Shown: positions 268 to 54,682, counted from the stretch's first letter. The stretch: 64,000 nt of DNA from Bacillota bacterium (GCA_012839815.1 DUMQ01000098.1:376-64375); one strand, 5' to 3'. The notes: generated from the sequence alone by a model not told the origin. Numbers and translations are program-made.

Positions 268-662
268 GTGTGAACCTGTGCCGCTGGCGGCTAGAAAAGG
301 CTGAGAAAACCTTTATCGAAGGGGACCAACTCCTGGAGCTAGGTTCTTACAATGGTGCTATCAATCGGTTTTATTATGCTGCATTTCACGCCGTGAGAGC
401 GTTGTTGGCTACCAAGAAGTTGGATGCTGCTAAACATAGTGGCGTTATTGCCCTATTTAACCGCGAATTCGTCAAGACCGGGGTAATAAATAAAAAAGCC
501 AGTAAAACGCTATCCATGGTTTTCGCTTTGCGCTCGGAGGCCGATTATGACGATTTTAGGAATTTTGGTCTACAAGAGGTCAAAGAAGCAAGAAATGCTG
601 TACGTTCCCTGATCGATGAGATCTCCGCATTTTTATCAGGAACCTCTCGCGAAGGATCGTAG
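264..662 (+). CDS. HEPN-domain toxin (HepT-like) of a HEPN/MNT toxin-antitoxin pair
   Basis: 132 aa ORF with a HEPN-like helical signature (RFYYAAFHAVRALL...; R-x(4-6)-H-like motif near ALRSEADYD). Translationally coupled to the upstream MNT gene. Confidence 0.65.
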   Translation: MSVNLCRWRLEKAEKTFIEGDQLLELGSYNGAINRFYYAAFHAVRALLATKKLDAAKHSGVIALFNREFVKTGVINKKASKTLSMVFALRSEADYDDFRNFGLQEVKEARNAVRSLIDEISAFLSGTSREGS

Positions 663-739
663 CGTGAGACAAAGGTGGAATTATGGTGGGCAGTACCAAA
701 AAATGCGGGGAGGATTCCTATAGAGCCCTGGTAATACAT

Positions 740-860
740 CTAATGCATTCACATCTATATCTCCTATGTCTATTCGCATATCTATCATCGGCGTTGCCGC
801 TGCGTCTATCGGCATCGCTGCTGAACCGAGCCCTGCGAATATATCGAGCCCTACGAATAT
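740..860. repeat. Short tandem/direct repeats upstream of lptD (TCTAT iterations; GAGCCCTRCGAATAT x2)
   Basis: Direct reading: catctatatctcctatgtctattcgcatatctatc...; cgagccctgcgaatat / cgagccctacgaatat in tandem. Confidence 0.5.
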
Positions 861-901
861 TTCGTTTCCCGAATCGCTACCTCTCGGCCCCACGGCTTCA
901 A

Positions 902-3607
902 ATGTCTATCATTGTTGCTGTTATCACCGTTGTTACCGTTGTTGCCGCTCAGGGGTTGGGTTTCCCTGTCATCGACATGCCTGCCGTTGGTCACGCTCCT
1001 GCCATCTCTTTCTCCACTGGTCATGCATATGCTGCGGAGGCCACAGAGAGCGGGCAGGGCAGCGCGTCTGACGATTCGAGTGCATCGCAAGCTGGTCCTG
1101 GCGAGGCCAGCGGGGCTGGCCGTTCTGTCAGGTCTGGCGGTCCTGACGGGGGTGTCGAGACTGGCAGGGCCGTCGGGGCCGGCCGCGCCCGGCTTGTGGC
1201 CGGCGAGGTGAGCTTTGACCTTGAAAACAGGATCATCACGGCGCGGTCGAATGTCCGGCTCTTACATGAGGATGTGGAGCTAACCGCCGATTATATGGAG
1301 GTCAATTTGAATACAAACGAGGTCCTGGCGGTTGGCAATGTGTCCATGTCGAAAGAGGGCGACCGGGTCCAGGCGCAGAGCATGAAGTATAATCTCAAGA
1401 GCGAAAAGGGGACCTTTGACCACGCCCTTGCAACTGTAACGGATGAGGATATAAAGGGGGAGCTGTTCGTCTCAGGCAACAGGGTTGAGGTTGATCCCAA
1501 CGTTATAAGGATAGTCTCAGGGAGCCTCACATCGTGCGATCTCGAGGTCCCCCATTATCATATTGAAGCTTCGGAGGTTACCATCTACATCGACGATAAG
1601 GTAATTATTCGGAATGTATCCTACTGGGAGGGGCGGTATAAGATATTCCAATGGCCTTACCTCGTATTCTCATTGAAAGAGGAAAACCAGCTTGAACTCC
1701 CCAGGTTTGGTTACGGCTCCTATGAGGGCTGGTTTATCAAGACCACCTATAATTACTATCGCACCGATGCAAGCCGCGGTAAGCTCTATCTCGACTATTT
1801 CCAGAGGCTCGGTCTCGGAGCGGGTGTGAAACACCTGTATGATCTGGGCAGGATAGGTAACGGCTTCCTTTATTTATACATGCTCGGCAATCGCCTTGTG
1901 GGACATAATGACATTGAGGCCGAGGTGTCGCACGGGCTCACGCTCGGGAGGGATGTTAGAGCCGATCTCGACCTGAAGTATGAGAATACGGGGACCTCAG
2001 GCGGCGGTGAGGATAAGAGCTTCACATCGTCTGTCGCCATAAACCAGAAAGACGAGTCTGGGGCGATGAACCTCTCGTTGAAGAATGTGAGCCGCGATGG
2101 GTCTGTTTACGGCGATACGAGGAGCATATCCTTTTGGGGTGAAAGGTACATTACCGACCGGATCAGGATCGCTGCCGACGCGAGCTATCTTGATGAACAA
2201 GCATCTGACAGGGAGCGAGATAGGTATTTGAACTATAAGATAAGTATAGAAGACCAGCTGCCTTCCCTTACGTTCAACGCGGTTGTAGAGAATTACGTAA
2301 AACCGAAGCAGCCCAGCGAGGAGGAAGGGGAAGAGCTCAAGGAGGAAGAAGAGATTCCCTGGAATGCGCTGGTTCGCCTTCCTGAGATCACGATTACCAC
2401 AAAGCCTCTCACCGTGAAACCCCTGCCCGCGCCGCTCGTCTTGAAGGCTGGTTGGGGCAAGTATTCTGAGAACGCCCTCCATGATGGGTGGACGCCAAGT
2501 ATCTTGACGGCCACGCGGACGGAGGCGGGGGTTGAGGTGCCAACAAGGATCGTCCCGCTTTGGGGAGGGACCTCCGGCGACATCTCGGCATCCCTGACAT
2601 GGGATGGGTATAGCGCCATAGAGAGGCGGGGCCAGTATCTGGACTGGCAGGCCGGCCAGCAGGGTTCAGGAGGGTATGCGGAGTATTATGAACGATATGT
2701 GGCAAATGCGACGGTTGGCCTGAGATCGAGACTCACCCAATCTCTTTCGCTGCGGCTCAGCTATGATTATCAAGGGGTCTGGGGTTGGTCGCCATTCGTG
2801 TTTGACGAGCAGGAGCCCAAGGGACTCGTAGCCGCAACGCTCAGTTTCAGGAACCCCGGCTCTAGCTCTGGTTTTGGCTATGGTCATAATCGTGGTTCCG
2901 GTTATGAATGGAATGCTGAAGTAGGCGCGGGCTATGACCTCTATTATCGCGAGTTTCAAGACATCATAGGCAAATTTACATTGAGCTTCGCCGCCGGTTC
3001 CCCGGCTGGACCGCCTCGTCAGGAAGGCGTATCCGGCCCGGGGGACGCGGCAGACTCAACAGGCCCGGCGAATCCGGCAGATTCAGCAAACACGACAGAT
3101 TCAGCAAACATGACAGATTCAGCGGGCACGGCAAATCCCGTAAGCCCGGCAGAGCAAGCAGGCCCGGCAAACCTGGCAGGTGCTGGTAATTCAGGGAATC
3201 CGGGTAGGAAGTTGTCACTGGACGTGGTTGGTAGGTATGATCCAAACGCATCCCAGATGCGGGACGTGACAGGCAAGATCACATTCACGTCCAGGGAGGG
3301 CTGGGATATAAAGGCCGGGGCGCGTTATAGCTTTGAGAATAAGGCGCTGGACAGGCTCGAAAGCGAGGTAGACGTCCAAGTTAACAAAGACTGGCGCATA
3401 CAATGGACCGTGGTATATGGCGGTGTGGATGAGAAGACGATCAAGCGGGCTGATATAGGCATAACGCGTGACCTGCACTGCAGGGAACTCAGCCTCCTTT
3501 ATAGCTATAAGGACCAGGAGGTGTGGCTCGAATACAGGATCAAGGCCTTCCCGTTTGAGGGCATAAAATTCGGCCTCGGCGACCAGGGGGTGCTTTTGGG
3601 CCAGTGA
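902..3607 (+). CDS. lptD: LPS-assembly outer-membrane protein LptD (OstA N-terminal domain + C-terminal beta-barrel)
   Basis: OstA-like N-terminal region (VSFDLENRIITARSNVRLLHEDVELTADYMEVNLNTNEVLAVGNV...) followed by LptD C-terminal-type sequence (YHIEASEVTIYID...YWEGRYKIFQWPYLVFS...GYGSYEGWFIKTTYNYY). The six-frame ORF begins at 683, but a hydrophobic signal-like Met (MSIIVAVITVVTVVAAQG) at 902 is a more plausible start. Contains an in-frame low-complexity insert (see findings). Confidence 0.8.
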   Translation: MSIIVAVITVVTVVAAQGLGFPVIDMPAVGHAPAISFSTGHAYAAEATESGQGSASDDSSASQAGPGEASGAGRSVRSGGPDGGVETGRAVGAGRARLVAGEVSFDLENRIITARSNVRLLHEDVELTADYMEVNLNTNEVLAVGNVSMSKEGDRVQAQSMKYNLKSEKGTFDHALATVTDEDIKGELFVSGNRVEVDPNVIRIVSGSLTSCDLEVPHYHIEASEVTIYIDDKVIIRNVSYWEGRYKIFQWPYLVFSLKEENQLELPRFGYGSYEGWFIKTTYNYYRTDASRGKLYLDYFQRLGLGAGVKHLYDLGRIGNGFLYLYMLGNRLVGHNDIEAEVSHGLTLGRDVRADLDLKYENTGTSGGGEDKSFTSSVAINQKDESGAMNLSLKNVSRDGSVYGDTRSISFWGERYITDRIRIAADASYLDEQASDRERDRYLNYKISIEDQLPSLTFNAVVENYVKPKQPSEEEGEELKEEEEIPWNALVRLPEITITTKPLTVKPLPAPLVLKAGWGKYSENALHDGWTPSILTATRTEAGVEVPTRIVPLWGGTSGDISASLTWDGYSAIERRGQYLDWQAGQQGSGGYAEYYERYVANATVGLRSRLTQSLSLRLSYDYQGVWGWSPFVFDEQEPKGLVAATLSFRNPGSSSGFGYGHNRGSGYEWNAEVGAGYDLYYREFQDIIGKFTLSFAAGSPAGPPRQEGVSGPGDAADSTGPANPADSANTTDSANMTDSAGTANPVSPAEQAGPANLAGAGNSGNPGRKLSLDVVGRYDPNASQMRDVTGKITFTSREGWDIKAGARYSFENKALDRLESEVDVQVNKDWRIQWTVVYGGVDEKTIKRADIGITRDLHCRELSLLYSYKDQEVWLEYRIKAFPFEGIKFGLGDQGVLLGQ

Positions 3608-4401
3608 CGCGAAGAGTGACACGAGGAGTGATGCGAGGAGCTATAGTTGTCATGGCCTTGGTGCTCATCTCGGGAGCGACTTTCCTGGCGACTAATTGGC
3701 GGCTTAGGGGGTGGCTTGCGGGGCGCTGGGACCTGGCGGGGGAAAGGCAGCCGGACGGGAAGCCGGCCGGGGTGACATCGAGCGCGGCGTCAAATGAGGG
3801 AGGGCAGAAGCCTGGGATTGACATGAGCCGGACGAAGCTCGTGGGGCGCGCCAGGGGCGTGAAACAGTGGGAACTCGAGGCTGCCGAGATTAGGATACAG
3901 GAAGGCGGCAGGGCGTCGAGCGGCACGGGCGGCGGTGGGCGCGGGGGCGGTCCTGCCATTGTAGTGCTTAAGGACATCCGGGGCGGCATGATCTTCCAGG
4001 AGGGTAAGCCCAGGCTCGGGTTTGAGGCCGCGAAGGCTGAAGCCAACCCGGGGACGGGGGATTTCAAGCTCATGGGTGGGGTCTTGTTGACTGCATTGAG
4101 AACTGAGCCAACCGGTCCAAATACAGGGCCGGAGGCGACGCTGGAGGTCCCCGATCTCCGGTGGGATGCGCGGAGCGAGAGGCTCGAGTGTTCGGGCCCC
4201 GTGGAGCTTAGAACTCGTGGAGTAGTCGTGAAGGGCGAGCGGGTGTCGGGCAGCATGAAGGACAAGACGCTTGTAATCGAGGGAAACGTCAGGATATTCA
4301 AGATGAACGGGAGCCTCACATGCAAGCGCGCTATCTACCGGTTTGAGGCGGGGACGCTGGAGATCGTAGGGGAGAGCGAGCTGAACATCGATATGGGTTA
4401 A
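3604..4401 (+). CDS. lptC: LptC-like protein (N-terminal TM anchor + OstA-fold domain)
   Basis: N-terminal hydrophobic helix (GAIVVMALVLISGATFLATNW) followed by a beta-jellyroll-like region resembling the LptC/LptA family. Overlaps the lptD stop by 4 nt. Start (GTG 3604 or ATG 3631) uncertain. Confidence 0.55.
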   Translation: MTRRVTRGVMRGAIVVMALVLISGATFLATNWRLRGWLAGRWDLAGERQPDGKPAGVTSSAASNEGGQKPGIDMSRTKLVGRARGVKQWELEAAEIRIQEGGRASSGTGGGGRGGGPAIVVLKDIRGGMIFQEGKPRLGFEAAKAEANPGTGDFKLMGGVLLTALRTEPTGPNTGPEATLEVPDLRWDARSERLECSGPVELRTRGVVVKGERVSGSMKDKTLVIEGNVRIFKMNGSLTCKRAIYRFEAGTLEIVGESELNIDMG

Positions 4402-4411
4402 ACTCCGGCAT

Positions 4412-4540
4412 AGATCACCCATAGAATCAACCTCGACATAGAATAAACCTCAGCATGGAATAGATCCATGGAGTAAACCTCGGCATGGAATAAACCTCGA
4501 TATAGAATAAATTTCACAGAATAAACCTCGGCGTAGAATA
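4412..4540. repeat. Tandem array of ~7 degenerate 17-bp units (CATAGAATAAACCTCGR) between lptC and lptA
   Basis: Direct reading: catagaatcaacctcga / catagaataaacctcag / catggaatag...gtaaacctcgg / catggaataaacctcga / tatagaataaatttca / cagaataaacctcggcg. Confidence 0.8.
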
Positions 4541-4549
4541 ATCGTTGGT

Positions 4550-5476
4550 GTGGCAACAATGGGGGCGAGAGGAATGGGCAACGGCATAGCTTTTCGTATT
4601 GTTGCACGTCGTATTATTGCGAGTTTTGCGGTCTTGGCCATATTTTGGATGACCGGCGGCATAACCGGCTGCGTGGAGGGATGGTCGGCGGGCGGCCGGG
4701 CTGGCATCTCGGCTGCGGGCGTGGTCGAGGCGGCGGAGAAAGCGATGGCGGGAAAGGCGAAGGAAAAGGTCCAGATAAGAGCCGACAAGAGTGGAGATTA
4801 TGATCTTGAAAAGGACGTGCTAATCCTCGAAGGTAATGTCATCATAACCCAGGGTGAGACCGTCATCAGGGCCGATAGGGTTGAGATCGATATGAATAAA
4901 AAGGTTGCGAAAGTGACTACGGGCGTGAACCTGACCCAGCCCGACCTTGTGTTGACGGGAAAGGTGTTCACCGCATATTTGAATGATAAGCGGGTTATCG
5001 TTGAGGGCGATGTTGTGCTTCAAAAGGACGAGGAGCAGGCTTCAGCGAAACAGGGCCCGGAGAAGCCGGGGGACTCCGGCAAGATGGGGGCGATGGCGGC
5101 AGGGGCTGCAGGAACGGGCACGGGCGGTAAAGGTGAAGCCGCGAGAGGTGAAAGCGCGAGGGTAGAATCAAAGGGCGAAGTTAGCAGCAAGAAGAAGGAT
5201 AGGATCACGTTAAGGTGCGATCGTCTCGAATACTGGACTGAGAAGAAGGAAAGCACCGCGACAGGGAACATTGCCGTTACCAAAGGTGAGACAAGAGCCT
5301 GGGGCGACAAGGCGGTCTACCGCGAAAAAGACAAGCTTTTCATCCTATCCGGAAGAAAGGTCAGGGTGGAAAGGGGTAAAGGCGAGACTATGACCTGCGC
5401 GGAGCTCACCATGTACACGGACCGGGACGTGGTTGTCGCCAGGAATAACGTCGAGATAGAGTTTGAGACAGATTAG
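4550..5476 (+). CDS. lptA: LptA-like periplasmic LPS transport protein (OstA N-terminal domain)
   Basis: Repeated OstA-type motifs (LILEGNVIITQGETVIRADRVEIDM...; DRITLRCDRLEYWTEKKESTATGNIAVTKGETRAWGDKAVYREKDKLFILSGRKVRVERGKGETMTCAELTMY). N-terminal hydrophobic segment. Start uncertain (GTG 4550 or ATG 4559). Confidence 0.7.
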   Translation: MATMGARGMGNGIAFRIVARRIIASFAVLAIFWMTGGITGCVEGWSAGGRAGISAAGVVEAAEKAMAGKAKEKVQIRADKSGDYDLEKDVLILEGNVIITQGETVIRADRVEIDMNKKVAKVTTGVNLTQPDLVLTGKVFTAYLNDKRVIVEGDVVLQKDEEQASAKQGPEKPGDSGKMGAMAAGAAGTGTGGKGEAARGESARVESKGEVSSKKKDRITLRCDRLEYWTEKKESTATGNIAVTKGETRAWGDKAVYREKDKLFILSGRKVRVERGKGETMTCAELTMYTDRDVVVARNNVEIEFETD

Positions 5477-5650
5477 AGGGTCTCTTTATGGCCACCAAAA
5501 GGATACTCCGAAGAGCAAAATGCAAAATAGATAGGAAGATGGGCTTTGCAGATAGAAAGGAGGTCGGACCCGGCTTCGGATTAGAATGATTTTTTGGAAT
5601 GGGCATCATAGATGAGACAAGATTTACATGGCCGTCCCTGGGTTGCAGTA

Positions 5651-5694
5651 TGGTATAATATGGCCCGTAGCAGGCAAATTAGCCCGTAGCAGGC
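5651..5694 (+). promoter_or_regulatory. Extended -10 promoter-like element (TGGTATAAT) followed by a 13-bp direct repeat (GCCCGTAGCAGGC x2)
   Basis: tatggtataatatggcccgtagcaggcaaattagcccgtagcaggcg lies immediately upstream of the 5714 ORF. Confidence 0.4.
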
Positions 5695-5713
5695 GCGAAA
5701 CGGGGGGACGGCC

Positions 5714-8416
5714 TTGCTTGTGTTTACGCTTTTCCGGGAGAGGTTCGCAAAGGACCTGCTCGAACTCCTCGTTGTCAGTATACTTGTGGGATCGTTCATT
5801 GCAGGCATCGTGGCGTTTACGGCGGATACATACTTTGGGAAGACGGTTACGGGGGTGCTCGGCGACTACGGCGAATACGATATTATTTTGCATGTCCGGG
5901 CGGAACGCAAAGCAGAGGCTTTAAAGGAAATCAGGAAGATAGCAGCGCGTGAATTCCCCGGGGCGCGAGTGAAGGAAGGACCAACACTGGTGGACAGGGC
6001 CAATTTCCTCGTGGGGTTGCCTGATTCACTGCGGCGCCGCGAGACCATCGAGAGATTGCCCCGGGTCTTCGGTGATATACCCGGGGCCAGCGGCAGCACC
6101 TATATTATAGAGCCGCGAATCGTTGTGAGCGCGGTGCAGGGCGGGGCTTTTCAGTTTTTAATGGCTCGGATTCAAAAGCTGCCGGGAGTGAGGTTTACCT
6201 TCAGGGACGGCTCGTCGATCGGTGTCGTCTTGAAATCAGTTGATGATATAAAGGGCACTGAAGAAGCGATAAAGGAGATGCTTCGTTCCTACCAAGTGGT
6301 GGAAGTCCGGCTACCTATGGGTGAAGAGATACAGGATTCCATGCGCGCTGGGGCCGCTCTTGCTAAGGAATTTGGTTCCAAACCTGAGTTTGGTTATGCG
6401 AAGGATATAACTGTCAGGTCCCGGAATGATGACATCCGAGACTTGACAGCAACCCTCATGGAGATGAGGGATTTCCTCCAGTACTATGCCGCCCATGTGA
6501 TGGTTATCCCGGATGATATTGAAAGCAAGAGGGTTGGCGATATCCATCCCGGCACCGTTCTTGTCTTACGCGCCGCAACGCGCGCAGCAGCACCTTCCCC
6601 TGGCGGCTCCACCAGGAGCGATACAGGCGTCCTCACAGCCGATGAAACCGACGAGGTTTTAATGGAAGTCAAGGAGGTTGTTAGGGAAGCTAGGGAGGCT
6701 AGTGTTGTTAGTAGGGAGGCTAGTAGAGTTAAGGACGCCAGTGGCGATAAAGCAGGCAATAAGGGTGATAATGATAATAAGGGCTATAAGATAGAAGGCA
6801 TCATTATACAGGGCGATATCTCCCAGCTTCAAGCCCGGCCCCAGTCCGGGTCACAATCGGAGCTCGTGGCGAGGGGCCAGATAAAGGCCGAGGCATACCT
6901 GCTGGGCCCGCAGGATACCATTGGGCCAAGGGTTGGCGTTGCGACCATAACAAGCGAACGGGAGCGGCTTGCCTATATGGTTGATGAGAGTATCAGGCTT
7001 ATGACCGAACTCGATAAGTTCAGCCATGATGCCTACAAGACCGCGCTGGATAGCCTCGACGTCCTGGGACTGTACGAGACCACCGTGGGGCGCCTGGTTC
7101 AGGTGCAGCGCACGCTCGAGGGTATAGATGACGGCCTCCTGATACATGGAAACACGCTGGACCAGCGGGATATAGCGAGGCTTGCGAAGGCTCTCGATGA
7201 CGCTTCAAGGGCTATGAATTCGTTTGCATCGGCCCTTGATAAGGTTAACTTCTTCGAGGCGCAGGTGGACAGGGTCCTGGGCAAGACGAGCGACGTGAGG
7301 CGCATCCTCGAGCAGGAGATACAGGCCACCTCGCCTGAAAGCTCGCCGGGCCTTTACCAGCGCCTGGTGGCGATGAAGGCTGCCCTGGATCTCGTGGAAT
7401 TCAAGGCGAGGGAGCGCGCACGGGCCATCGATAGCTTCCTCGCGGGGCTCAATCCGGCGGCGAAGAATATCGCGTCCTGGCAGGGTAAGTTCAAATCCTT
7501 AAGGAACGGCCTCGAGGACGCTAGGGCGCTGGTCAATAGCGGGAGGGCCCAGGCTATCCTCGGTGACCTGCTGGATGTGACCAACTCCACGCTCGCCCAG
7601 TTGCAGATGCTTGATATCGACAGCATGCGACAAAAGGTCGGGCGAATCTCAAGGGATCTCGAATCGCTCCAGAGTATAGACGTAAGCTCCATGATCGGCG
7701 AGTTAAAATACATCAAGGAATCTCTTCCCAATTTAAGGGATGACCAGGTGGGCCGCTCTATAAGGTTGATCGACCGTTACATCGGGGGCGAGGTTATACC
7801 CGGCGACCAGCTTCAGGTAATGGTCGACGGGCCGCCGGTTACGGTTGCCATGGCGCGCTCAGCCGCCAGGAAGGTCCTCAAGGATGATAATTTCACCGTT
7901 TTTATCACGCCGGTTGGTGTCCTCGAACCCGGCATACGGGGCGAGCTGTTCCGGGTGATGCGCGAGGCCCGGGCTACGATCGCCGCGCTCATGTCCGTGG
8001 TGTTTACCTTGCTGGTGCTGATTCTCGATCACGCTACCCTGGCGAGCGCGCTCAGGTATTTCGCGGGGCGCACAGGCTTCATAGGCTTCGACATAGGCAA
8101 GGTTTATGGCACATTTGCCGGGGCCCTGATTCTTACGCTGACGTATATGCTTTCAGGTGCCCGGATTCCTTATATTCGTCCTGCCCACATTCTCCTTGTG
8201 GGTGCCTTGATGGGTTACGTTGTGAGTTGGCAGAGTGACAAGATCAGCCCGGTTAATGAAGATGAGGTTACAGCTGCCATGGCCCTGGGGCTACCATATT
8301 CGGAAATAATAAGGGAGATAATAATACCGGCTGGAAGGCCCGGGCTGCTGCAGCTCCTGAATAGGCGCCGGATGAGGCTGCGCGCATCTGCCGGAAGCCA
8401 GCCCCGGACGGTTTAA
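5714..8416 (+). CDS. Membrane protein with FtsX/MacB-like topology: TM1, ~750-aa extracytoplasmic domain with a long coiled-coil, three C-terminal TM helices (putative ABC permease component)
   Basis: N-terminal TM (LLELLVVSILVGSFIAGIVAFTA). alpha/beta region reminiscent of FtsX/MacB periplasmic domains (DIILHVRAERKAEALKEIRKIAAREFPGARV; IIEPRIVVSAVQGGAFQFLMARIQKLPGVRFTF). ~450 aa of heptad-like coiled-coil sequence. Three hydrophobic helices at the C-terminus (ALMSVVFTLLVLIL / GALILTLTYMLSG / ILLVGALMGYVVSW). Immediately followed by an ABC ATPase. TTG start. The FtsX-family assignment is an inference from topology. Confidence 0.5.
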   Translation: MLVFTLFRERFAKDLLELLVVSILVGSFIAGIVAFTADTYFGKTVTGVLGDYGEYDIILHVRAERKAEALKEIRKIAAREFPGARVKEGPTLVDRANFLVGLPDSLRRRETIERLPRVFGDIPGASGSTYIIEPRIVVSAVQGGAFQFLMARIQKLPGVRFTFRDGSSIGVVLKSVDDIKGTEEAIKEMLRSYQVVEVRLPMGEEIQDSMRAGAALAKEFGSKPEFGYAKDITVRSRNDDIRDLTATLMEMRDFLQYYAAHVMVIPDDIESKRVGDIHPGTVLVLRAATRAAAPSPGGSTRSDTGVLTADETDEVLMEVKEVVREAREASVVSREASRVKDASGDKAGNKGDNDNKGYKIEGIIIQGDISQLQARPQSGSQSELVARGQIKAEAYLLGPQDTIGPRVGVATITSERERLAYMVDESIRLMTELDKFSHDAYKTALDSLDVLGLYETTVGRLVQVQRTLEGIDDGLLIHGNTLDQRDIARLAKALDDASRAMNSFASALDKVNFFEAQVDRVLGKTSDVRRILEQEIQATSPESSPGLYQRLVAMKAALDLVEFKARERARAIDSFLAGLNPAAKNIASWQGKFKSLRNGLEDARALVNSGRAQAILGDLLDVTNSTLAQLQMLDIDSMRQKVGRISRDLESLQSIDVSSMIGELKYIKESLPNLRDDQVGRSIRLIDRYIGGEVIPGDQLQVMVDGPPVTVAMARSAARKVLKDDNFTVFITPVGVLEPGIRGELFRVMREARATIAALMSVVFTLLVLILDHATLASALRYFAGRTGFIGFDIGKVYGTFAGALILTLTYMLSGARIPYIRPAHILLVGALMGYVVSWQSDKISPVNEDEVTAAMALGLPYSEIIREIIIPAGRPGLLQLLNRRRMRLRASAGSQPRTV

Positions 8417-8447
8417 GAGGTATGGTTCAAGAGGTGGGGATGTGTGG

Positions 8448-9188
8448 ATGGACTATCTACTGGAGATCAAGGGCCTCACAAAGAGGTTTGGCAAGACGCT
8501 CGTGCTGGACGGATTTGACCTGAACGTCGCGCGCGGCGAGACAGTGGTCATCACCGGCCCGAGCGGTTGCGGCAAATCGACGGCCCTGCGCTGCATCAAC
8601 CGCCTGACGGAGCCGGATTCGGGCAGTATAACATTCGCGGGGGTCGATATCACGAGGCTGTCCTACAGCGACCTCCTGAGGGTACGAAGGAGGATAGGCT
8701 TTGTCTTCCAACATTTCAATCTCATCGAGCGGCTCACTGCCCTCCAGAATGTCATGCTCGGCGTTATCTTTGAGGGGGTGCCATACCCTGAAGCACGCGA
8801 TATGGCCCTACGTGCCCTGGCGCGGGTCGGGATAGGCGAGATGCTTGCGTGCCGCAGGCCGTCGGAGCTGAGCGGCGGGGAGCGGCAGAGGGTGGGCATA
8901 GCGCGCGCCCTCGTGATGGATCCCGATCTCATGCTCTGGGATGAACCAACCGCCTCGCTCGACCCGATCCTGGTCGTCGACGTTTTGGACGTCATGGAGG
9001 AGCTTGTAAAGACCTCTGGAAAGACCATGATTATTGTGACACATGAAATGAAGTTTGCATCCCGCGTTGCAGACAGGATTGTGTTGCTCGACCGGGGGCG
9101 GGTAGCCGAGGAGGGGCCGCCGGGTGAGGTCTTCCTAGCCCCCAAATCTGAGATCGGGCGCCGCTATAAGCGGCTCCTGGCGGGGTAA
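8448..9188 (+). CDS. ABC transporter ATP-binding protein (GlnQ/MlaF/FtsE-like single-NBD subunit)
   Basis: Walker A GPSGCGKST, signature LSGGERQRVGIARAL, Walker B LMLWDEPTASLD, H-loop VTHEM. CINRLTEPDSGSI motif. ATG 8448 chosen over in-frame GTG 8442. Confidence 0.9.
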   Translation: MDYLLEIKGLTKRFGKTLVLDGFDLNVARGETVVITGPSGCGKSTALRCINRLTEPDSGSITFAGVDITRLSYSDLLRVRRRIGFVFQHFNLIERLTALQNVMLGVIFEGVPYPEARDMALRALARVGIGEMLACRRPSELSGGERQRVGIARALVMDPDLMLWDEPTASLDPILVVDVLDVMEELVKTSGKTMIIVTHEMKFASRVADRIVLLDRGRVAEEGPPGEVFLAPKSEIGRRYKRLLAG

Positions 9189-9360
9189 GTCAGGAGTTAC
9201 CAGGCCGGCGCGCTAGAGCGTGGTGTTTTCTAGAAGAAGGGAAATGGGCTCAAATGTAGAAGTATTGATTCTGAAACCAGGGGCCAACCCGGTGACCCGA
9301 AGGATACCCGGGCGGCGCCCCGGGCTTTGGTCAAATTACGTCGTAATCTCAAATTAGGTC

Positions 9361-10338
9361 GTGATCATGGTGGGCTATTATAGGCCGGGCGGGTTTCAGG
9401 CAACGCTCGCTAGGGCCGCGGAGTATTGCGGCCCCGGGCTTCATTGCGGAAAATATGTCAACATGAGGATCCTGCCCGCCCCGCCGGGCACGGGCATCAG
9501 GTTCATGCGGGCGGATATCCCGGGGAGCCCTGTGATCCCTGCGCGGCCAGAGAACGTCGTATCGTCGGCCCGCTGCACCTCTATCGGGTCCGGCGAAGGC
9601 GCGCGCGTTGATACAATCGAACACCTCATGGCTGCCTTTCGCGGCCTTGGAGTGGATAATGCCATAGTTGAGCTGGACGGGCCGGAGGTGCCGATGGGTG
9701 ATGGGAGTGCGGCGGCCTTTGTCGAGTTGATTTGTCAGGCTGGCAGGATAATACAGGACGAAGAGCGGCTTAGCCTGGTTTTGGATTCCCCTATCTGGGT
9801 GAGCGAGGGGGACAAGCACCTTATTGCGCTCCCCCTGGGTACGATGCCCCACCTGGATACGAACGGCTCGCTCGTGCCGGGAGATAGGGGAGCGGGTGGC
9901 GGCCCCGGCGAGGGACTGAGGGTGACCTTCACGTTCGTTGGAAATCACCCGGCCGTCGGAACCCAGCACGTGGAATTCGAGCTTGATGGGGAAGGCGACG
10001 ATGGTGGCGTCTTCGTGAGAGAGCTGGCACCGGCGCGAACGATCGGCTTCGTGTGGGAGATTGAGAAACTGAGGGAGGCAGGGCTTGCCCTCGGCGGTAA
10101 CCTTGAGTCAGCTGTGGTCATCGGCCAGGAGGGATATCTTGGGCCCCTGCGTTTTGAGAATGAGGTGGCGCGGCACAAGGTCCTGGATATAGTTGGCGAT
10201 TTCGCCCTGCTCGGCCACGTCTGCGCCCATATTATCGGCATCAAGTCAAACCACGCAATGAACCACATGGCCATACGGGCAATAGCGGAGAGCGCGTCAT
10301 ACATAGACCCGGTGCACCCGGTCCATTATGCGTTATAG
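9361..10338 (+). CDS. lpxC: UDP-3-O-acyl-N-acetylglucosamine deacetylase LpxC
   Basis: LpxC motifs (TIEHLMAAF...; FENEVARHKVLDIVGDFALLGH...; HAMNHMAIRA) and overall collinearity with LpxC. Contains a Gly-rich in-frame insert (DRGAGGGPGEG). Start GTG 9361 or ATG 9367. Confidence 0.9.
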   Translation: MIMVGYYRPGGFQATLARAAEYCGPGLHCGKYVNMRILPAPPGTGIRFMRADIPGSPVIPARPENVVSSARCTSIGSGEGARVDTIEHLMAAFRGLGVDNAIVELDGPEVPMGDGSAAAFVELICQAGRIIQDEERLSLVLDSPIWVSEGDKHLIALPLGTMPHLDTNGSLVPGDRGAGGGPGEGLRVTFTFVGNHPAVGTQHVEFELDGEGDDGGVFVRELAPARTIGFVWEIEKLREAGLALGGNLESAVVIGQEGYLGPLRFENEVARHKVLDIVGDFALLGHVCAHIIGIKSNHAMNHMAIRAIAESASYIDPVHPVHYAL

Positions 10339-10339
10339 A

Positions 10340-10460
10340 CCCCACGCCTGAAGGGATTTCATGTAGATTCGGCATAATTGATCGGTGTCAGCATAATTGA
10401 CCGGTATCGATATACTTTACCGGTATCGGTATAATTTAATTTGCCGGTATAGGTAATTGA
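10340..10460. repeat. Degenerate tandem repeats (~19-20 bp, CATAATTGACCGGTATCG-like, ~6 copies) between lpxC and fabZ
   Basis: Direct reading: ggcataattgatcggtgtca / gcataattgaccggtatcga / tatactttaccggtatcgg / tataatttaatttgccggtatagg / taattgagcggtatagg. Confidence 0.7.
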
Positions 10461-10524
10461 GCGGTATAGGTATTACGGAACGGCATGAGAGGATTGACGG
10501 ACGAGGGGGAGGCTTTTGGTCTGG

Positions 10525-10981
10525 GATGATTGACGCAGTTGGGGTCCAGAAGGTGTTGCCGCATCGTTTCCCGTTTTTGCTGATCGATAGGGTGCTTGAG
10601 GTCGAGCCTGGTAAACGGGCCGTGGCGATCAAGAATGTTACAGTAAATGAGCCCTTTTTTGAGGGTCATTTCCCCAATAAGCCGATTATGCCCGGCGTGT
10701 TGATTATCGAGGCGATGGCTCAGGTCTGCGGGGTCGCGGCCATGTTAAACGGCGAGGAGAAAAGCTGGACGCCCTATTTCGTAGGCATCGACAAGGCGCG
10801 TTTTCGCAGGCCGGTGACCCCGGGGGATCAGCTCAGGATAGAGGTGGAGATCACAAAGGTGAGAGGCAATGTGGGGAGGGCAACGTGCAGCGCCTTCGTC
10901 GACGGACGGCTTGTGGCGGATGGCGAACTGACGTTTGCCCTGGTAGAAGATGAGACGAATGAGCGGAATATTGAGGAATGA
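10525..10981 (+). CDS. fabZ: 3-hydroxyacyl-ACP dehydratase FabZ
   Basis: LPHRFPFLLIDRVLE...NEPFFEGHFPNKPIMPGVLIIEAMAQ: the canonical FabZ hot-dog fold sequence. Start at MIDAVGVQ (10525) within the longer 10457 ORF. Confidence 0.9.
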
Positions 10982-11030
10982 GAATTGAGGAATGAGAATA
11001 ATTGAGGAATGAGGAGCGGGGGCTGTTATA
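10965..11030. repeat. Mini tandem repeat TTGAGGAATGAGAA x3 spanning the fabZ stop/lpxA start junction
   Basis: aatattgaggaatgagaattgaggaatgagaataattgaggaatgagg. Confidence 0.6.
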
Positions 11031-11032
11031 TA

Positions 11033-11896
11033 ATGAAATCTTTTGAGACGGCTACATTCAGGCCCCGGAAGATTCACTCAACTGCAGTGATTCACCCGAC
11101 TGCAAAGCTCGGCCGCGATGTCGAGGTAGGGCCATATTGTGTCATAGGCGCGGAAGTGGTGATCGGTGACGGGACCAGGCTGGCAAGCCATGTTGTCATA
11201 GACGGGCCGGCAATTATCGGGAGGAATTGTCGAATAGCGTCGTTTGCTTGTCTTGGCGGGGACCCTCAGGATGTGAAGTACGCTGGTGAGAAAACCACGT
11301 TGGTGATAGGCGATAATAATCTAATCCGCGAGTATGCCACGATACACCGGGGGACTCCCGGGGGGCGCGGCGAGACGCGGGTCGGTAACAACAACATGAT
11401 AATGTCGTACGCCCACATCGCCCACGATTGCGTGGTCGGAGACAACGTGATCATAACGGGTGGCGCCGCCATCGCGGGCCACGTAACGGTCGAGGACTAC
11501 GCGGTAATAGGCGGTATGGCGGGGGTGCACCAGTTTGTGAGGGTGGGCCGGATGGCCATGGTGGGAGGTATGGCCAAGGTCGTAAAGGATATTCCCCCCT
11601 ATTTCCTGGTCGATGGGAATCCGGCGAGGGCAATCGGGGTGAATATCGTCGGGATGCGGCGCAACGGCGTGGCCCCCGAGGTGAGGGCTGAGATACGGAA
11701 GGCATTCAAGATTCTATATGAATCAAGGCTTAATGCATCGCAAGCCATCGCCCGCATGGAGCAGGAGCTGGTCGAGTGTGAGGAGATCAAACACCTGATC
11801 GACTTTCTAAAGATGTCGTCAAGAGGGATTTGCAGCAGCCGGCCGTGGGAAGGGGGACCGGCGGGCGACGCACGCGAAACGGGTGATCTAGTATAA
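11033..11896 (+). CDS. lpxA: Acyl-ACP--UDP-N-acetylglucosamine O-acyltransferase LpxA
   Basis: Left-handed beta-helix hexapeptide repeats (IHPTAKLGRDVEVGPYCVIGAEVVIGDGTRL...) and C-terminal helical domain typical of LpxA. Gene order fabZ-lpxA. Confidence 0.9.
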   Translation: MKSFETATFRPRKIHSTAVIHPTAKLGRDVEVGPYCVIGAEVVIGDGTRLASHVVIDGPAIIGRNCRIASFACLGGDPQDVKYAGEKTTLVIGDNNLIREYATIHRGTPGGRGETRVGNNNMIMSYAHIAHDCVVGDNVIITGGAAIAGHVTVEDYAVIGGMAGVHQFVRVGRMAMVGGMAKVVKDIPPYFLVDGNPARAIGVNIVGMRRNGVAPEVRAEIRKAFKILYESRLNASQAIARMEQELVECEEIKHLIDFLKMSSRGICSSRPWEGGPAGDARETGDLV

Positions 11897-13900: not shown

Positions 13901-14019
13901 ACTTGCCTCGGGTGGCGCACCTCTTCTCGCCCGGTCGAAGGGGTGTATCTGGAAGACCCTGCGACGTGAAATGGGCGGGCGGGGCATGCGAAGAGACGCA
14001 GAGGGGGGAGGGAGGCCCG

Positions 14020-15327
14020 GTGGACGTCGTCATCTTGACTAATAGCCCCGGTGAGGTGACAGGCTGGGTCAGGCCTGTTGTCGAGAGGCTTGTAGAGCGG
14101 GATGCGAATTCGAGGGTTTTTGTTTTTCTTTCCCCGTGCGTTTTTGCGAGCAGGCGGGAAGCTCAGGTGTTGCGGGAGATCCCCGGCATTAGCGGGGTAT
14201 TTTCACCACGTGAATATATAGGTTACGCGCTTTTCGGGAGGCGGCCCGCGGGCTTTGCCCCTGCAGGCCCGGGCGTGGTGGTGCATCTCGGCGGGGACTT
14301 TATGCATTCCGCCCGAGTTGCCAAGAGGCTCGGATTCCCGGCGGTGGCTTACAGCGACAGGACCGCCAGCTTTCACGGGAGTTTTAAGGTTATCGCCGTG
14401 GAGGATAATCGGGTGAGGGACAAGCTCATTGCCAAAGGCATCCCCCCGGGCAAACTGAGGGTTATAGGTAACCTTATGGTTGACAGCGTCAAACCCTCGT
14501 TCCCCCGCGACCTGGCGCGCCAGGCGTTTGGTATCCGGGAGGATGCATTTTGTGTGTTGATTATGCCCGGCTCAAGGCCACAGCAGGTAAAGCACATGGC
14601 CCCGTTCTTCCTGGAAGTAGCCGGGTTGATCAAAAAGGTCGAGCGAAGGGCCGAGTTCCTGCTGGCGCTCTCTCCGTTTGTTTCCCGGGAAATGTTTGAG
14701 GCCGCCGTGGGAGAGGCCGCCGTCGAATTCGGCGGCAGGTCCGGAGAAGAGGATGCAGCCCAAGATGCGGCCCGGGAGCATACAGGGGATGCTGAGATGG
14801 CCGGGAAGACCAGGGTGCATATTGTTGAGCCTGATAAGCGTTACGATGCTATGGCCGCCTCGGACCTGGCGATAGTCATGCCGGGGACTTCCACGGCGGA
14901 GCTTGGATTTCTGGGGATTCCCATGGTGGTGGCGGTGCCCCTGAACTGGCCGGGTGAGGTGCCTCTCCCGGGTATCTTGGGGTTGGCCGGCGGGGTCCCG
15001 GTCCTCGGAGGGCTTTTAAAGCGCTATGCCATCAGGGGTTTAATCAACAAGGTTGAATTTACCGCTCTGCCAAATAAAAGGGCCAGGAAGATGATAGTTC
15101 CTGAGGTACGCGGGGTTTTAGACCCTGAGGACGTGGCGATCCAGGCGCTTGAGCTTTTGCAGGACGCAAGCAGGCGTATGACGATTTCGAAGAATCTTAT
15201 TGAGGCCATGGGCGCAGCAGGGGCGGCGAACAGGCTGGTTGACATTATCTTTGAAGCTGCCGGCGGAGGAGGGGACAGGTGTTGGCAGGTAGATTCAGAT
15301 CCACAGGGAGGCCCGGAGCGGGCCTGA
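14020..15327 (+). CDS. Lipid-A-disaccharide synthase-related glycosyltransferase (GT19-like paralog)
   Basis: VDVVILTNSPGEVTGW...LIMPGSRPQQVKHMAPFFLEV...DLAIVMPGTSTAELGFLGIPMVVAV parallels LpxB motifs but is divergent. GTG 14020 is preceded by GGGAGG. The longer ORF from 13903 is possible. Confidence 0.6.
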   Translation: MDVVILTNSPGEVTGWVRPVVERLVERDANSRVFVFLSPCVFASRREAQVLREIPGISGVFSPREYIGYALFGRRPAGFAPAGPGVVVHLGGDFMHSARVAKRLGFPAVAYSDRTASFHGSFKVIAVEDNRVRDKLIAKGIPPGKLRVIGNLMVDSVKPSFPRDLARQAFGIREDAFCVLIMPGSRPQQVKHMAPFFLEVAGLIKKVERRAEFLLALSPFVSREMFEAAVGEAAVEFGGRSGEEDAAQDAAREHTGDAEMAGKTRVHIVEPDKRYDAMAASDLAIVMPGTSTAELGFLGIPMVVAVPLNWPGEVPLPGILGLAGGVPVLGGLLKRYAIRGLINKVEFTALPNKRARKMIVPEVRGVLDPEDVAIQALELLQDASRRMTISKNLIEAMGAAGAANRLVDIIFEAAGGGGDRCWQVDSDPQGGPERA

Positions 15328-18327: not shown

Positions 18328-18407
18328 GGGTCGACCACCCCACGCCTGAAGCCGGGGCGCCCATGGGGCACCCGGCACCGCATAATCTTGGTGGTGGGGG
18401 TAGTATA

Positions 18408-20476: not shown

Positions 20477-20479
20477 CCT

Positions 20480-28480: not shown

Positions 28481-28588
28481 GCGCCTTGCTTGCCTTGTGC
28501 GCTACGATGTAGTATGATCGACCCCGGGGGGTATCATCCCATCCCCCGGGGTCTTCATCATCGCCCCGCCTGGAGAGGTGTTGATGTA

Positions 28589-53590: not shown

Positions 53591-53628
53591 GATAATGCTG
53601 GTTTTATTCTCCGGAGGCATTGATACCA

Positions 53629-54648: not shown

Positions 54649-54682
54649 CTACAAGACCTTTTCAACTCATCTACGCGGGAAT

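What the first reader, a model, noticed from the sequence alone, without database searches (positions are those of the whole stretch)
5714..9188. FtsX/MacB-topology permease with a ~450-aa built-in coiled-coil, plus ABC ATPase, embedded between lptA and lpxC
The 900-aa protein has TM1, then an alpha/beta region reminiscent of FtsX/MacB periplasmic domains. A very long heptad coiled-coil follows, long enough in principle to span a wide periplasm, and the protein ends in three TM helices. A single-NBD ABC ATPase follows it. FtsEX normally acts through a separate coiled-coil partner such as EnvC, PcsB or CwlO. Here the coiled-coil is fused into the FtsX-like protein, and no hydrolase domain is visible. 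Its position inside the LPS/OM cluster suggests a role in OM or cell-envelope assembly, for example as a mechanotransmission or extraction device analogous to MacB, LolCDE or FtsEX. The architecture is not one I recognise as characterised.
Basis: partly seen in the sequence, partly recalled or inferred. Interest (0 to 1): 0.7.

Follow-up and report, generated by a model that had tools for sequence, protein, structure and literature searches.

The report
Truncated importer-type ABC machine beside lpxC
This is a real, conserved and so far undescribed two-gene ABC machine of outer-membrane-bearing Firmicutes, found next to the lipid A gene lpxC in 73 of 83 loci, whose membrane subunit has the helix layout of FtsX/MacB but is by sequence a cut-down nutrient-importer permease carrying a roughly 700-residue periplasmic insert.

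Summary
Both genes are real: a 900-aa membrane protein ('X', 5714-8416) and a 248-aa ABC ATPase (8442-9188), between an lptA-like gene and lpxC.

X has one TM helix, alpha/beta modules, a helical region and then three TM helices. The 'coiled coil' is about 200-275 aa of helical bundle, not about 450 aa.

The FtsX/MacB assignment fails on sequence:
- No member matches the FtsX or MacB_PCD models.
- The C-terminus is a canonical EAA coupling loop of binding-protein-dependent importers (glycine and proline invariant in 133 relatives).
- A 48-sequence TMD profile finds six sequences in the whole PDB at E <= 10. Five are type I importer permeases (ArtQ-type, PotC, MetI).
- The ATPase is closest to GlnQ/HisP-type importer ATPases.

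X looks like a six-TM importer permease that lost TM5-6 and gained a huge insert in its first periplasmic loop.

The pair works together. In 83 loci the ATPase follows X in 81, and it is fused to X in Carboxydochorda subterranea. lpxC follows in 72, plus that fused locus.

I found no annotation or literature on it. The most likely role, which is inferred, is an ATP-driven periplasmic mechanotransducer in lipid A/LPS envelope biogenesis. I rate it a new variant of a known kind.

The parts
5651..5659 (+). Candidate extended -10 promoter element TGgTATAAT in the 238-nt gap upstream of X
   Evidence: Read directly from the sequence. The consensus scan did not report it because it has no -35 hexamer. 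Weak evidence.
5702..5708 (+). Ribosome-binding site GGGGGGA, 5 nt before the TTG start of X
   Evidence: Sequence.
5714..8416 (+). Gene X: 900-aa membrane subunit (TM1, periplasmic modules, helical bundle, TM2-4, C-terminal EAA loop)
   Evidence: ORF and translation. Full-length homologues with E down to 0. 83 syntenic loci.
5756..5824 (+). TM1 (aa 15-37). The AlphaFold helix runs on to aa 54 as a periplasmic stalk.
   Evidence: Hydropathy 2.53. Helix 11-54.
5882..6310 (+). Two tandem ferredoxin-like (beta-alpha-beta-beta-alpha-beta) periplasmic modules, aa 57-130 and 135-199, carrying the motifs GDYGEYD and GVRFxFRD
6338..6511 (+). Third alpha/beta segment (aa 209-266) with the motif EMxxFLxxYA
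6557..6952 (+). Beta-rich domain (aa 282-413) interrupted by low-complexity inserts. The insert at about aa 326-356 is specific to this genome.
   Evidence: AlphaFold strands and segments with pLDDT below 50. Alignment gaps. No heptad signal.
6956..7783 (+). Helical bundle / coiled-coil region (aa 415-690): three helices of 55-64 residues plus four shorter ones. Its length varies among relatives.
   Evidence: DSSP. (3.5-residue periodicity above the 95% null in 51-100% of windows across the three segments of aa 415-610). (helical-bundle matches). (length variation).
7724..7804 (+). Most conserved periplasmic motif, LPNLRDDQVGRSIRLIDRYIGGEVIPG (aa 671-697)
   Evidence: Invariant columns P672, L674, D676, S682, I690, G692, I695, P696.
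7808..7927 (+). Small beta-alpha-beta-beta module (aa 699-738) just before TM2
7976..8044 (+). TM2 (aa 755-777) with the conserved Asp-His pair (D772 invariant in 48 diverse members). The AlphaFold helix spans aa 741-787.
8102..8158 (+). TM3 (aa 797-815)
8180..8236 (+). TM4 (aa 823-841)
8246..8350 (+). C-terminal cytoplasmic EAA loop (coupling helices), SPVNEDEVTAAMALGLPYSEIIREIIIPAGRPGLL. The protein ends 21 residues later, so there is no TM5 or TM6.
   Evidence: Motif statistics in 133 relatives. Pfam BPD_transp_1 below threshold. PDB profile hits ArtQ/PotC/MetI aligned in register. hhalign against true permeases, P 1.3e-4 to 2.5e-5.
8431..8436 (+). RBS GAGGTG for the ATPase gene
   Evidence: Sequence.
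8442..9188 (+). ABC ATPase (NBD) partner of X, 248 aa. The start is GTG 8442 or ATG 8448.
   Evidence: PF00005 E 9e-36. Best NCBIfam matches are GlnQ/TcyN/EhuA/PhnC/HisP. 49% identical over 241 aa to the NBD fused to X in Carboxydochorda. Only 31% identical to the window's LptB.

Best explanation
X (5714-8416) and the ATPase (8442-9188) are the two subunits of one ABC machine, most likely X2-NBD2.

What X is. X descends from a binding-protein-dependent (type I, polar-amino-acid-like) importer permease. It keeps TM1-TM4 and the EAA coupling loop that plugs into the ATPase. It has lost the two helices that normally follow that loop. It has gained about 700 residues in its first periplasmic loop: ferredoxin-like modules, a beta domain, a helical bundle of about 9 nm (estimated from 60-residue helices) and a small module before TM2.

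How it probably works. With only 4 TM helices per subunit and no binding-protein gene nearby, it probably does not carry a solute across the membrane. ATP binding and hydrolysis would move the EAA loops and the TM2-4 bundle. The long TM1 and TM2 helices, which run on into the periplasm, would pass that movement to the periplasmic modules, which then act on a partner or lipid in the envelope. This is the same working principle as MacB, LolCDE and FtsEX, reached from a different ancestor.

Likely process. Its near-constant position directly upstream of lpxC, inside the lipid A/LPS/OM cluster, points to lipid A/LPS or outer-membrane biogenesis.

Shown versus inferred. Shown: gene reality, topology, the EAA loop, importer-type ATPase, obligate pairing and fusion, synteny and restriction to Bacillota. 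Inferred: dimer stoichiometry, mechanotransmission and the substrate or process.
For: Pairing:
- The ATPase lies directly downstream of X in 81 of 83 loci.
- X and the ATPase are fused in one polypeptide in five full-length cluster representatives (944-996 aa) plus one N-terminally truncated 506-aa fragment. One of the five, P0160, is Carboxydochorda subterranea CP141615.1, where the fusion sits in the same slot before lpxC.
- The window ATPase is 49% identical to that fused NBD and 31% identical to LptB.
- A paralogous copy stands alone as a two-gene unit among unrelated genes.

Importer ancestry:
- The EAA motif positions match: A at -5 in 127/133, G at 0 in 133/133, I/V at +10 in 131/133, P at +13 in 133/133.
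- The strict EAA regular expression hits only 2 true permeases and 1 family member among 1592 ORFs.
- The 48-sequence TMD profile finds 6 of 177,635 PDB sequences at E <= 10. Five are type I importer permeases (4yms_D 0.014, PotC 0.054, MetI 0.069). The PotC alignment spans TM2 through the EAA loop.
- hhalign gives probabilities of 54% and 75% against true permeases.
- 12 of 18 members hit BPD_transp_1 below threshold.
- JGI's pipeline named two C-terminal fragments 'ABC-type amino acid transport system permease subunit'.
- The ATPase is closest to GlnQ/TcyN/HisP.

Truncation is a family trait: all members end 15-25 residues after the loop or continue into the NBD.

Topology and stalk helices.

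Context:
- lpxC follows the ATPase in 72 loci. It also follows the fused gene in L081, which makes 73 of 83. In four further loci the contig ends first.
- Very divergent members keep the order X-NBD-lpxC, in one case with overlapping stop and start codons.
- In Sporomusa ovata the pair sits inside lpxD-yjbH-like-lpxL-X-NBD-lpxC-fabZ-lpxA-lpxI-lpxB-msbA.
- No binding-protein gene is adjacent in any inspected locus.
Against: - Each similarity to importer permeases is individually weak: Pfam 17.1 bits against a cut-off of 26.4, and PDB E-values of 0.014-0.07.
- An exhaustive profile search of 1.84 billion proteins returned only 143 family members and no ordinary permeases at E <= 0.001. The homology therefore rests on the motif and on the consistency of weak hits.
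- The AlphaFold models are of moderate confidence (pLDDT 71-72, pTM 0.40-0.42). No complex could be modelled, so the stalk helices, domain packing and dimer are unverified.
- No experiment, expression data or interaction partner links the pair to LPS. Synteny alone cannot separate a biogenesis role from a regulatory or unrelated one.
- Five loci lack an adjacent lpxC.
Confidence: 0.5

Rival explanations
1. X is a divergent member of the FtsX/MacB (type VII) permease family with a built-in coiled coil replacing EnvC/PcsB-like partners.
Against: - No PF02687 or PF12704 hit in 18 members at E <= 1.
- No FtsX, MacB or LolCE sequence appears among PDB profile hits, while importer permeases do.
- The conserved coupling element is a C-terminal EAA loop. 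The TM2-TM3 loop is variable and poorly conserved.
- The ATPase scores 236 bits against GlnQ versus 170-173 bits against FtsE and LolD.
Confidence: 0.08
2. The pair is still a genuine importer. The periplasmic modules would act as a fused substrate-binding domain, as in GlnPQ or OpuA, and the 8-helix dimer would carry a small molecule into the cell.
For: It has importer-type EAA loops and an importer-type ATPase, closest to polar-amino-acid systems. ACT-like modules typically bind small ligands (general knowledge). Fused binding domains are known in this importer family (general knowledge).
Against: - The two helices after the EAA loop, which help line the pathway in MetI-, ArtQ- and MalG-type permeases (general knowledge), are missing in every member.
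- The periplasmic modules are ferredoxin-like, not periplasmic-binding-protein folds.
- A helical bundle of 200-275 aa has no role in such a model.
- The fixed position in the lipid A cluster has no parallel among nutrient importers.
Confidence: 0.1
3. The pair is a sensor or regulator rather than a mover of material. The periplasmic domain would sense LPS, lipid or envelope state, and the ATPase cycle would adjust lipid A synthesis (LpxC level or activity). This would be analogous in logic to YejM/LapB-FtsH control of LpxC or to BceAB-type flux sensing.
For: Linkage to lpxC is very tight. It follows the ATPase in 72 loci, and in the fused locus as well. In L083 the stop and start codons of X, NBD and lpxC overlap.
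Against: - X has almost no cytoplasmic mass beyond the EAA loop: a 14-residue N-terminus and a variable basic TM2-3 loop. Any output would therefore have to go through the NBD.
- No kinase, protease or adaptor gene is conserved nearby.
- The paralogous copies are not next to lpxC.
- Adjacency may simply reflect a conserved operon order.
Confidence: 0.15
4. The 900-aa ORF is an artefact: a chimera from misassembly, or a decaying pseudogene.
For: A low-complexity insert (about aa 326-356) is unique to this genome.
Against: - Colinear homologues covering 98-99% of the query occur in many independent assemblies, including complete genomes.
- Invariant motifs are conserved across all domains.
- Other members carry different low-complexity inserts at the same loop.
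Confidence: 0.01

Closest known systems
MacB / LolCDE / FtsEX (type VII ABC mechanotransducers; Pfam FtsX PF02687, MacB_PCD PF12704)
   Same: Four TM helices per subunit. A large extracytoplasmic domain between TM1 and TM2. TM1 and TM2 predicted to extend as stalk helices. Ferredoxin-like ('Porter'-like) periplasmic modules. A separate or fused single NBD. A probable periplasmic site of action in envelope biogenesis.
   Different: No sequence relationship to PF02687 or PF12704. The coupling element is a C-terminal EAA loop, not a helix between TM2 and TM3. The ATPase is importer-like rather than FtsE/LolD-like. It has a built-in helical bundle and no Sabre-type subdomain was detected. The resemblance is probably convergent.
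Type I ABC importer permeases of the polar-amino-acid / PotC / MetI kind (Pfam BPD_transp_1 PF00528; e.g. ArtQ-type 4YMS, PotC 8Y5F, MetI 3DHW) with GlnQ/HisP-type ATPases
   Same: A canonical EAA loop (EAA-x3-G-x9-I-x-LP followed by PG). The TM2-TM4 region aligns in register. The partner ATPase family is the same. The N-in topology of a six-helix permease is retained for TM1-TM4.
   Different: It lacks the two helices after the EAA loop. It has about 700 residues inserted in periplasmic loop 1. There is no binding-protein gene. It scores below the Pfam gathering threshold. Its genomic context is lipid A/LPS, not nutrient uptake.
GlnPQ / OpuA-type importers with substrate-binding domains fused to the permease
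   Same: Extracytoplasmic domains fused to a type I permease of the same ATPase family.
   Different: The fused domains here are ferredoxin-like modules plus a helical bundle, not class II binding-protein folds. They are inserted between TM1 and TM2 rather than attached to a terminus.
LptB2FG (and MlaFEDB), the ABC systems known from LPS/OM gene clusters
   Same: Encoded in the same cluster as lptC, lptA and lpx genes. ATP-driven inner-membrane complexes acting on envelope lipids.
   Different: The window has its own LptB (21378-22097) and LptF/G (22094-23173). The X ATPase is only 31% identical to LptB. X has no LptF_LptG or MlaE/MCE domain.

Membership tests
FtsX/MacB type VII ABC permease | Match to the FtsX domain model (PF02687) over TM2-TM4 | tested here: not met
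   No hit in the window protein at E <= 0.01, and none in 18 members at E <= 1. No FtsX, MacB or LolCE chain appears among PDB hits of the TMD profile.
FtsX/MacB type VII ABC permease | Four TM helices with a large extracytoplasmic domain between TM1 and TM2, with both termini in the cytoplasm | tested here: met
   AlphaFold helices and hydropathy peaks. The EAA loop and, in fused relatives, the NBD place the C-terminus in the cytoplasm.
FtsX/MacB type VII ABC permease | Periplasmic domain homologous to MacB_PCD (PF12704) or FtsX ECD | tested here: inconclusive
FtsX/MacB type VII ABC permease | Conserved major coupling helix in the TM2-TM3 cytoplasmic loop | tested here: not met
   The TM2-TM3 loop varies in length and sequence. 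The conserved cytoplasmic element is the C-terminal EAA loop.
FtsX/MacB type VII ABC permease | FtsE/LolD/MacB-type ATPase partner | tested here: not met
   NCBIfam scores are GlnQ 235.8, TcyN 218.6 and HisP 209.5 bits, against LolD 172.8 and FtsE 169.7 bits. None reaches its equivalog cut-off.
Type I ABC importer permease (BPD_transp_1, PF00528) | EAA loop motif EAA-x3-G-x9-I-x-LP in a cytoplasmic loop | tested here: met
   Position-by-position match in 133 relatives. 8 of 134 fit the strict pattern and 121 of 134 fit a relaxed pattern. The loop aligns in register with true permeases.
Type I ABC importer permease (BPD_transp_1, PF00528) | Score above the Pfam gathering threshold | tested here: not met
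   17.1 bits against a cut-off of 26.4. The best E-value among 18 members is 0.0047.
Type I ABC importer permease (BPD_transp_1, PF00528) | Core of at least five TM helices, two of them after the EAA loop | tested here: not met
   The protein ends 21 residues after the loop. All relatives end there or continue into the NBD.
Type I ABC importer permease (BPD_transp_1, PF00528) | Cognate substrate-binding protein (separate gene or fused binding-protein fold) | tested here: not met
   No binding-protein gene is next to the pair in the window or in L029, L046, L081, L082 or L083. The periplasmic modules are ferredoxin-like. The rest of each genome was not searched.
Type I ABC importer permease (BPD_transp_1, PF00528) | Importer-type ATPase partner | tested here: met
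   Best NCBIfam matches are GlnQ, TcyN, EhuA, PhnC and HisP.
ABC ATPase (PF00005) | Walker A, Q-loop, signature, Walker B with catalytic Glu, and H-loop all present | tested here: met
   PF00005 E 9.3e-36 over the full model. The motifs can be read in the translation.
LptB2FG LPS exporter | LptF_LptG permease domain (PF03739) and LptB-type ATPase | tested here: not met
   X has no PF03739 hit. The window encodes a separate LptB and LptF/G at 21378-23173. The X ATPase is 31% identical to that LptB.

The most novel reading that the evidence does not exclude
The pair is the founding example of a new structural class of ABC machine. An importer-type, EAA-loop half-permease has been converted, by loss of TM5-6 and a giant insertion in loop 1, into a periplasm-directed mechanotransducer. 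This class would be an ancestral, dedicated component of lipid A/LPS or outer-membrane biogenesis in diderm Firmicutes (Limnochordia, Sporomusaceae-type Negativicutes, some Halanaerobiales), with no counterpart in Proteobacteria.
Probability: 0.35. Interest if true: 0.8.

Novelty: new variant of a known kind. Interest (0 to 1): 0.64.

Why it matters
Outer-membrane biogenesis has been worked out almost entirely in Proteobacteria. Diderm Firmicutes lack several of those systems (no Lol in Negativicutes, no Lpp or Pal-type tethers), and their conserved OM gene cluster still contains unexplained genes.

This pair is one of the most tightly linked genes to the lipid A operon in these lineages. It is missing from the published catalogue of OM-cluster markers (PMC5007114, Supplementary file 1) and has no domain annotation.

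It would also show that the 'mechanotransmission' layout of MacB, LolCDE and FtsEX can arise independently from an importer chassis. That bears on how ABC transporter classes are defined and how they evolve.

It gives a concrete, genetically testable candidate for a missing step or control point in LPS/OM assembly in Terrabacteria.

Tried and rejected
- Foldseek of the full-length model against the PDB gave only helical-bundle noise (MCPs, ClyA, designed bundles). It says nothing about the TMD or the alpha/beta part.
- A PDB sequence search with the full-length profile returned coiled-coil noise only. Restricting the profile to the TMD was what worked.
- An exhaustive HMM search of 1.84 billion representatives with the TMD profile was intended to bridge to ordinary permeases. 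It returned only the family itself (143 hits), but it revealed the NBD-fused members.
- The search for homologous proteins with an N-domain alignment returned a single hit, probably because the candidate list was swamped by low-complexity words. With a C-terminal fragment it returned mostly short fragments. Neither settled the taxonomic range.
- The afdb50 fold library was unavailable.
- An Rfam scan of 5300-9500 found nothing credible.
- The 13-nt direct repeat upstream of X is not conserved in any of 83 related loci, so it was not pursued as a regulatory element.
- LptB identity for the ATPase was considered and rejected.
- Five full-text literature searches and the supplement of PMC5007114 gave no description of the pair.

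Full report
**1. What is there**

The + strand carries an ORF at 5714-8416 (TTG start, 900 aa) with a G-rich ribosome-binding site at 5702-5708. Twenty-five bases after its stop codon begins an ORF at 8442-9188 (248 aa).

The second ORF is a complete ABC ATPase with all catalytic motifs (PF00005, E 9e-36).

The surroundings are the outer-membrane/LPS cluster typical of diderm Firmicutes:
- Upstream lie an LptD_N-like 974-aa protein (683-3607), an LptC-like protein (3604-4401) and an LptA-like protein (4550-5476).
- Downstream lie lpxC (9361-10338), fabZ, lpxA, lpxI, lpxB, a second lpxB-like gene, msbA, another lptC/lptA set, lptB (21378-22097) and lptF/G (22094-23173).
- Further on are a DUF3084 protein, an SLH coiled-coil protein, a RuvX-like protein, an OMP barrel and an O-antigen ligase.

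The ATPase is not LptB. The window has its own LptB, which is only 31% identical to it.

**2. Anatomy of the 900-aa protein ('X')**

The description rests on an 18-sequence alignment, a full-length AlphaFold model (pLDDT 71, pTM 0.40), a model of aa 38-420 (pLDDT 72) and hydropathy and periodicity calculations. In order:
- TM1 covers aa 15-37, within a helix that continues to aa 54.
- Two tandem beta-alpha-beta-beta-alpha-beta modules follow (aa 57-130 and 135-199, pLDDT 85-93), carrying the family motifs GDYGEYD and GVRFxFRD.
- A third alpha/beta segment covers aa 209-266.
- A beta-rich domain covers aa 282-413. It is broken by low-complexity inserts, one of them unique to this genome.
- A helical region covers aa 415-690. 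It comprises three helices of 55-64 residues plus four shorter ones.
- The most conserved periplasmic motif, LPNLRDDQVGRSIRLIDRYIGGEVIPG, lies at aa 671-697.
- A small beta-alpha-beta-beta module covers aa 699-738.
- TM2 covers aa 755-777 within a helix spanning 741-787. It carries an Asp that is invariant in 48 diverse members.
- A variable basic loop is followed by TM3 (aa 797-815) and TM4 (aa 823-841).
- A conserved cytoplasmic tail (aa 845-879) ends the protein 21 residues later.

**3. It is not an artefact**

Homologues colinear over 98-99% of the protein occur in many independent assemblies. They include complete chromosomes of Sporomusa ovata, S. acidovorans, S. rhizae, S. aerivorans and S. 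malonica and of Carboxydochorda subterranea. Other members carry different low-complexity inserts in the same loop.

**4. What family is the membrane domain?**

*The FtsX/MacB idea fails on sequence.*
- No member hits PF02687 or PF12704, even at E <= 1.
- 12 of 18 members hit BPD_transp_1 (PF00528) below threshold, always over TM3-TM4 plus the tail. Three much more divergent members do the same.

*The tail is a textbook EAA loop.* Aligned on its invariant glycine, 133 relatives show the following:
- E is the commonest residue at -6.
- A occurs at -5 in 127 of 133.
- G or A occurs at -4 in 124 of 133.
- G occurs at 0 in 133 of 133.
- I or V occurs at +10 in 131 of 133.
- I, V or L occurs at +12.
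- P occurs at +13 in 133 of 133.
- The motif is followed by x-x-R-P-G-L-L.

This is EAA-x3-G-x9-I-x-LP, the signature by which binding-protein-dependent permeases dock their ATPases (established knowledge). A strict regular expression for this motif hits only two ordinary permeases and one family member among 1592 ORFs of the window and 83 loci.

*Profile searches point the same way.*
- A profile of 48 diverse TMDs was searched against all 177,635 distinct PDB sequences. It returns six sequences at E <= 10.
- Five of them are type I importer permeases: an ArtQ-type amino-acid permease (4yms_D, E 0.014), PotC (two entries, E 0.054) and MetI (E 0.069, plus a second MetI sequence at 8.7).
- The PotC alignment runs from TM2 to the end of the EAA loop.
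- hhalign against the window's own sugar permeases aligns the loop in register. P improves from 7.6e-4 to 2.5e-5 as the profiles deepen.
- The ATPase scores best against GlnQ, TcyN, EhuA, PhnC and HisP, about 60 bits above LolD and FtsE.
- JGI's pipeline independently named two C-terminal fragments 'ABC-type amino acid transport system permease subunit'.

*Caveat.* Each of these hits is individually weak. An exhaustive profile search of 1.84 billion representatives recovered only the family itself (143 hits). The relationship is therefore remote and is argued from the motif plus the consistency of the hits.

*Most economical reading.* X is a six-helix importer permease that kept TM1-TM4 and the EAA loop. 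It lost TM5-TM6 and acquired about 700 residues in periplasmic loop 1.

**5. The alpha/beta modules**

'Reminiscent of FtsX/MacB' is therefore true only in the generic sense that many transporter periplasmic domains use this fold. Homology is neither shown nor excluded.

**6. X and the ATPase are one machine**

- Among 83 loci the ATPase lies directly downstream in 81. In one more the contig ends first.
- In the remaining locus, from Carboxydochorda subterranea L945T, the two are fused into a 967-aa polypeptide in the same genomic slot. This organism is a cultivated Limnochordia member shown by TEM to be diderm (PMC11456536).
- In all, five full-length cluster representatives (944-996 aa) are fused in this way, the 967-aa protein among them, and a 506-aa N-terminally truncated fragment shows the same fusion.
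- The window ATPase is 49% identical over 241 residues to the fused NBD.
- Second copies in two Sporomusaceae genomes stand alone as two-gene units among unrelated genes. No third component is obligatory in cis.

**7. Genomic association**

- lpxC follows the ATPase in 72 loci and follows the fused gene in L081, which makes 73 of 83. In four further loci the contig ends first.
- The exceptions are the two paralogous copies and three loci where fabZ, lpxB or lptB follow instead.
- Members sharing only 17-33% identity in the N-domain keep the order X-NBD-lpxC, once with overlapping stop and start codons.
- The upstream neighbour varies. It is lptC/lptA-like in Limnochordia-type loci.
- In Sporomusa ovata the order is bamA-?-skp(x3)-lpxD-yjbH-like-lpxL-X-NBD-lpxC-fabZ-lpxA-lpxI-lpxB-msbA. 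There the pair sits inside the lipid A operon.
- All named members come from Bacillota: Limnochordia, Sporomusaceae and relatives, Hydrogenispora, one Halanaerobiales MAG and many unclassified MAGs. They are annotated 'hypothetical protein', or once 'ABC transporter permease'.

**8. How it most likely works**

*Shown:* an intact ATPase, an EAA docking loop, four TM helices per subunit, no helices after the loop, no adjacent binding-protein gene, long TM1/TM2 helices continuing into the periplasm in the model, a large modular periplasmic domain, and fixed linkage to lipid A genes.

*Inferred:* an X2-NBD2 complex with only eight TM helices is unlikely to form the importer-type translocation path. 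ATP-driven closure of the NBDs would instead be passed through the EAA loops and the TM2-4 bundle to the TM1/TM2 stalks. From there the movement would reach the periplasmic modules, which would act on an envelope lipid or partner protein. This is the working principle of MacB, LolCDE and FtsEX, reached here from an importer ancestor.

The context suggests that the process is lipid A/LPS or OM biogenesis. I put about 0.95 on 'one ABC complex', about 0.8 on importer ancestry and about 0.4-0.5 on the mechanotransducer/envelope role.

*Rivals:*
- A true FtsX relative (0.08).
- A still-functional importer with a fused ligand-binding domain (0.10).
- A sensor controlling LpxC or lipid A flux (0.15).
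- An artefact (0.01).

**9. Novelty**

Pfam (2025), NCBIfam (2026) and PDB sequence searches give no family. Five full-text searches found no description of the pair. Nor did the OM-cluster catalogue of Antunes et al. 2016 (main text and Supplementary file 1) or the 2026 Acetonema proteome study.

It belongs to the ABC superfamily but has an unreported subunit architecture, so I rate it a new variant of a known kind. There is a fair chance (about 0.35) that it defines a new structural class with a dedicated role in diderm-Firmicute envelope assembly.

Noticed in passing
window 5663-5675 and 5682-5694: An exact 13-nt direct repeat, GCCCGTAGCAGGC, occurs twice 19 nt apart between the candidate -10 element and the RBS of X. 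Chance expectation is 0.1 matches per window. It is absent from all 83 related loci.
   Followed up: yes
window 264-662: A HEPN-domain ORF (E 1e-22) sits at the left edge, where the closest relatives (L001-L012) carry an lptF/G gene upstream of the LptD_N-like gene. This may be a local insertion or rearrangement.
   Followed up: no
window 683-3607: A 974-aa protein shows only a weak LptD_N/OstA match (E 1.7e-3) and no recognised LptD barrel domain. It is conserved upstream of lptC/lptA-like genes in Limnochordia-type loci (736-800 aa in L081 and L082). It may be the LptD equivalent.
   Followed up: partly
window 13903-15327: A second, 474-aa gene with only a partial LpxB match (aa 186-266, E 1e-14) directly follows the true lpxB. 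The same lpxB / lpxB-like pair recurs in L081 and L082. Its function is unknown.
   Followed up: partly
window 3604-5476 and 18321-21277: The cluster contains two separate LptC-like / LptA-like gene sets. A 458-aa ORF without any Pfam hit (19100-20476) lies between the second lptC and lptA.
   Followed up: no
window 23359-24915 and 28490-29080: A DUF3084 protein and a RuvX/COG0816-like protein are present. These are two of the three 'new OM-related proteins' pointed out by Antunes et al. 2016 (PMC5007114). A 942-aa SLH plus coiled-coil protein (25652-28480) lies between them.
   Followed up: no
window 6689-6781 (aa 326-356 of X): A charged low-complexity insert (EVVREAREASVVSREASRVKDASGDKAGNKGDNDNKGYK) is unique to this genome. 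Relatives carry Ala/Pro/Ser-rich inserts of other lengths in the same loop of the beta domain.
   Followed up: partly
L029 7944-11114; L043 about 8001-11058: Some Sporomusaceae genomes carry a second X+ATPase copy away from the LPS cluster. In L029 it lies among collagen-like, Ada/Ogt, HD-GYP, MCP, NUDIX and Ddl genes.
   Followed up: partly
L004, L030, L032 (PRJNA950955 bins): MAGs labelled Betaproteobacteria, Bacteroidota and Patescibacteria carry the Firmicutes-type X-ATPase-lpxC cluster with 31-44% identity to the window protein. These bins are probably mislabelled.
   Followed up: no
window 53620-56859: A LacI-family regulator and two ordinary sugar-type BPD_transp_1 permeases (55070-56011 and 56008-56859) are present. 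They served as in-window controls for the EAA-loop comparison.
   Followed up: yes
aa 772-773 of X (window 8027-8032): An Asp (invariant in 48 diverse members), usually followed by His, lies inside TM2 near its cytoplasmic end. A buried charged residue so conserved is likely to matter mechanistically.
   Followed up: no
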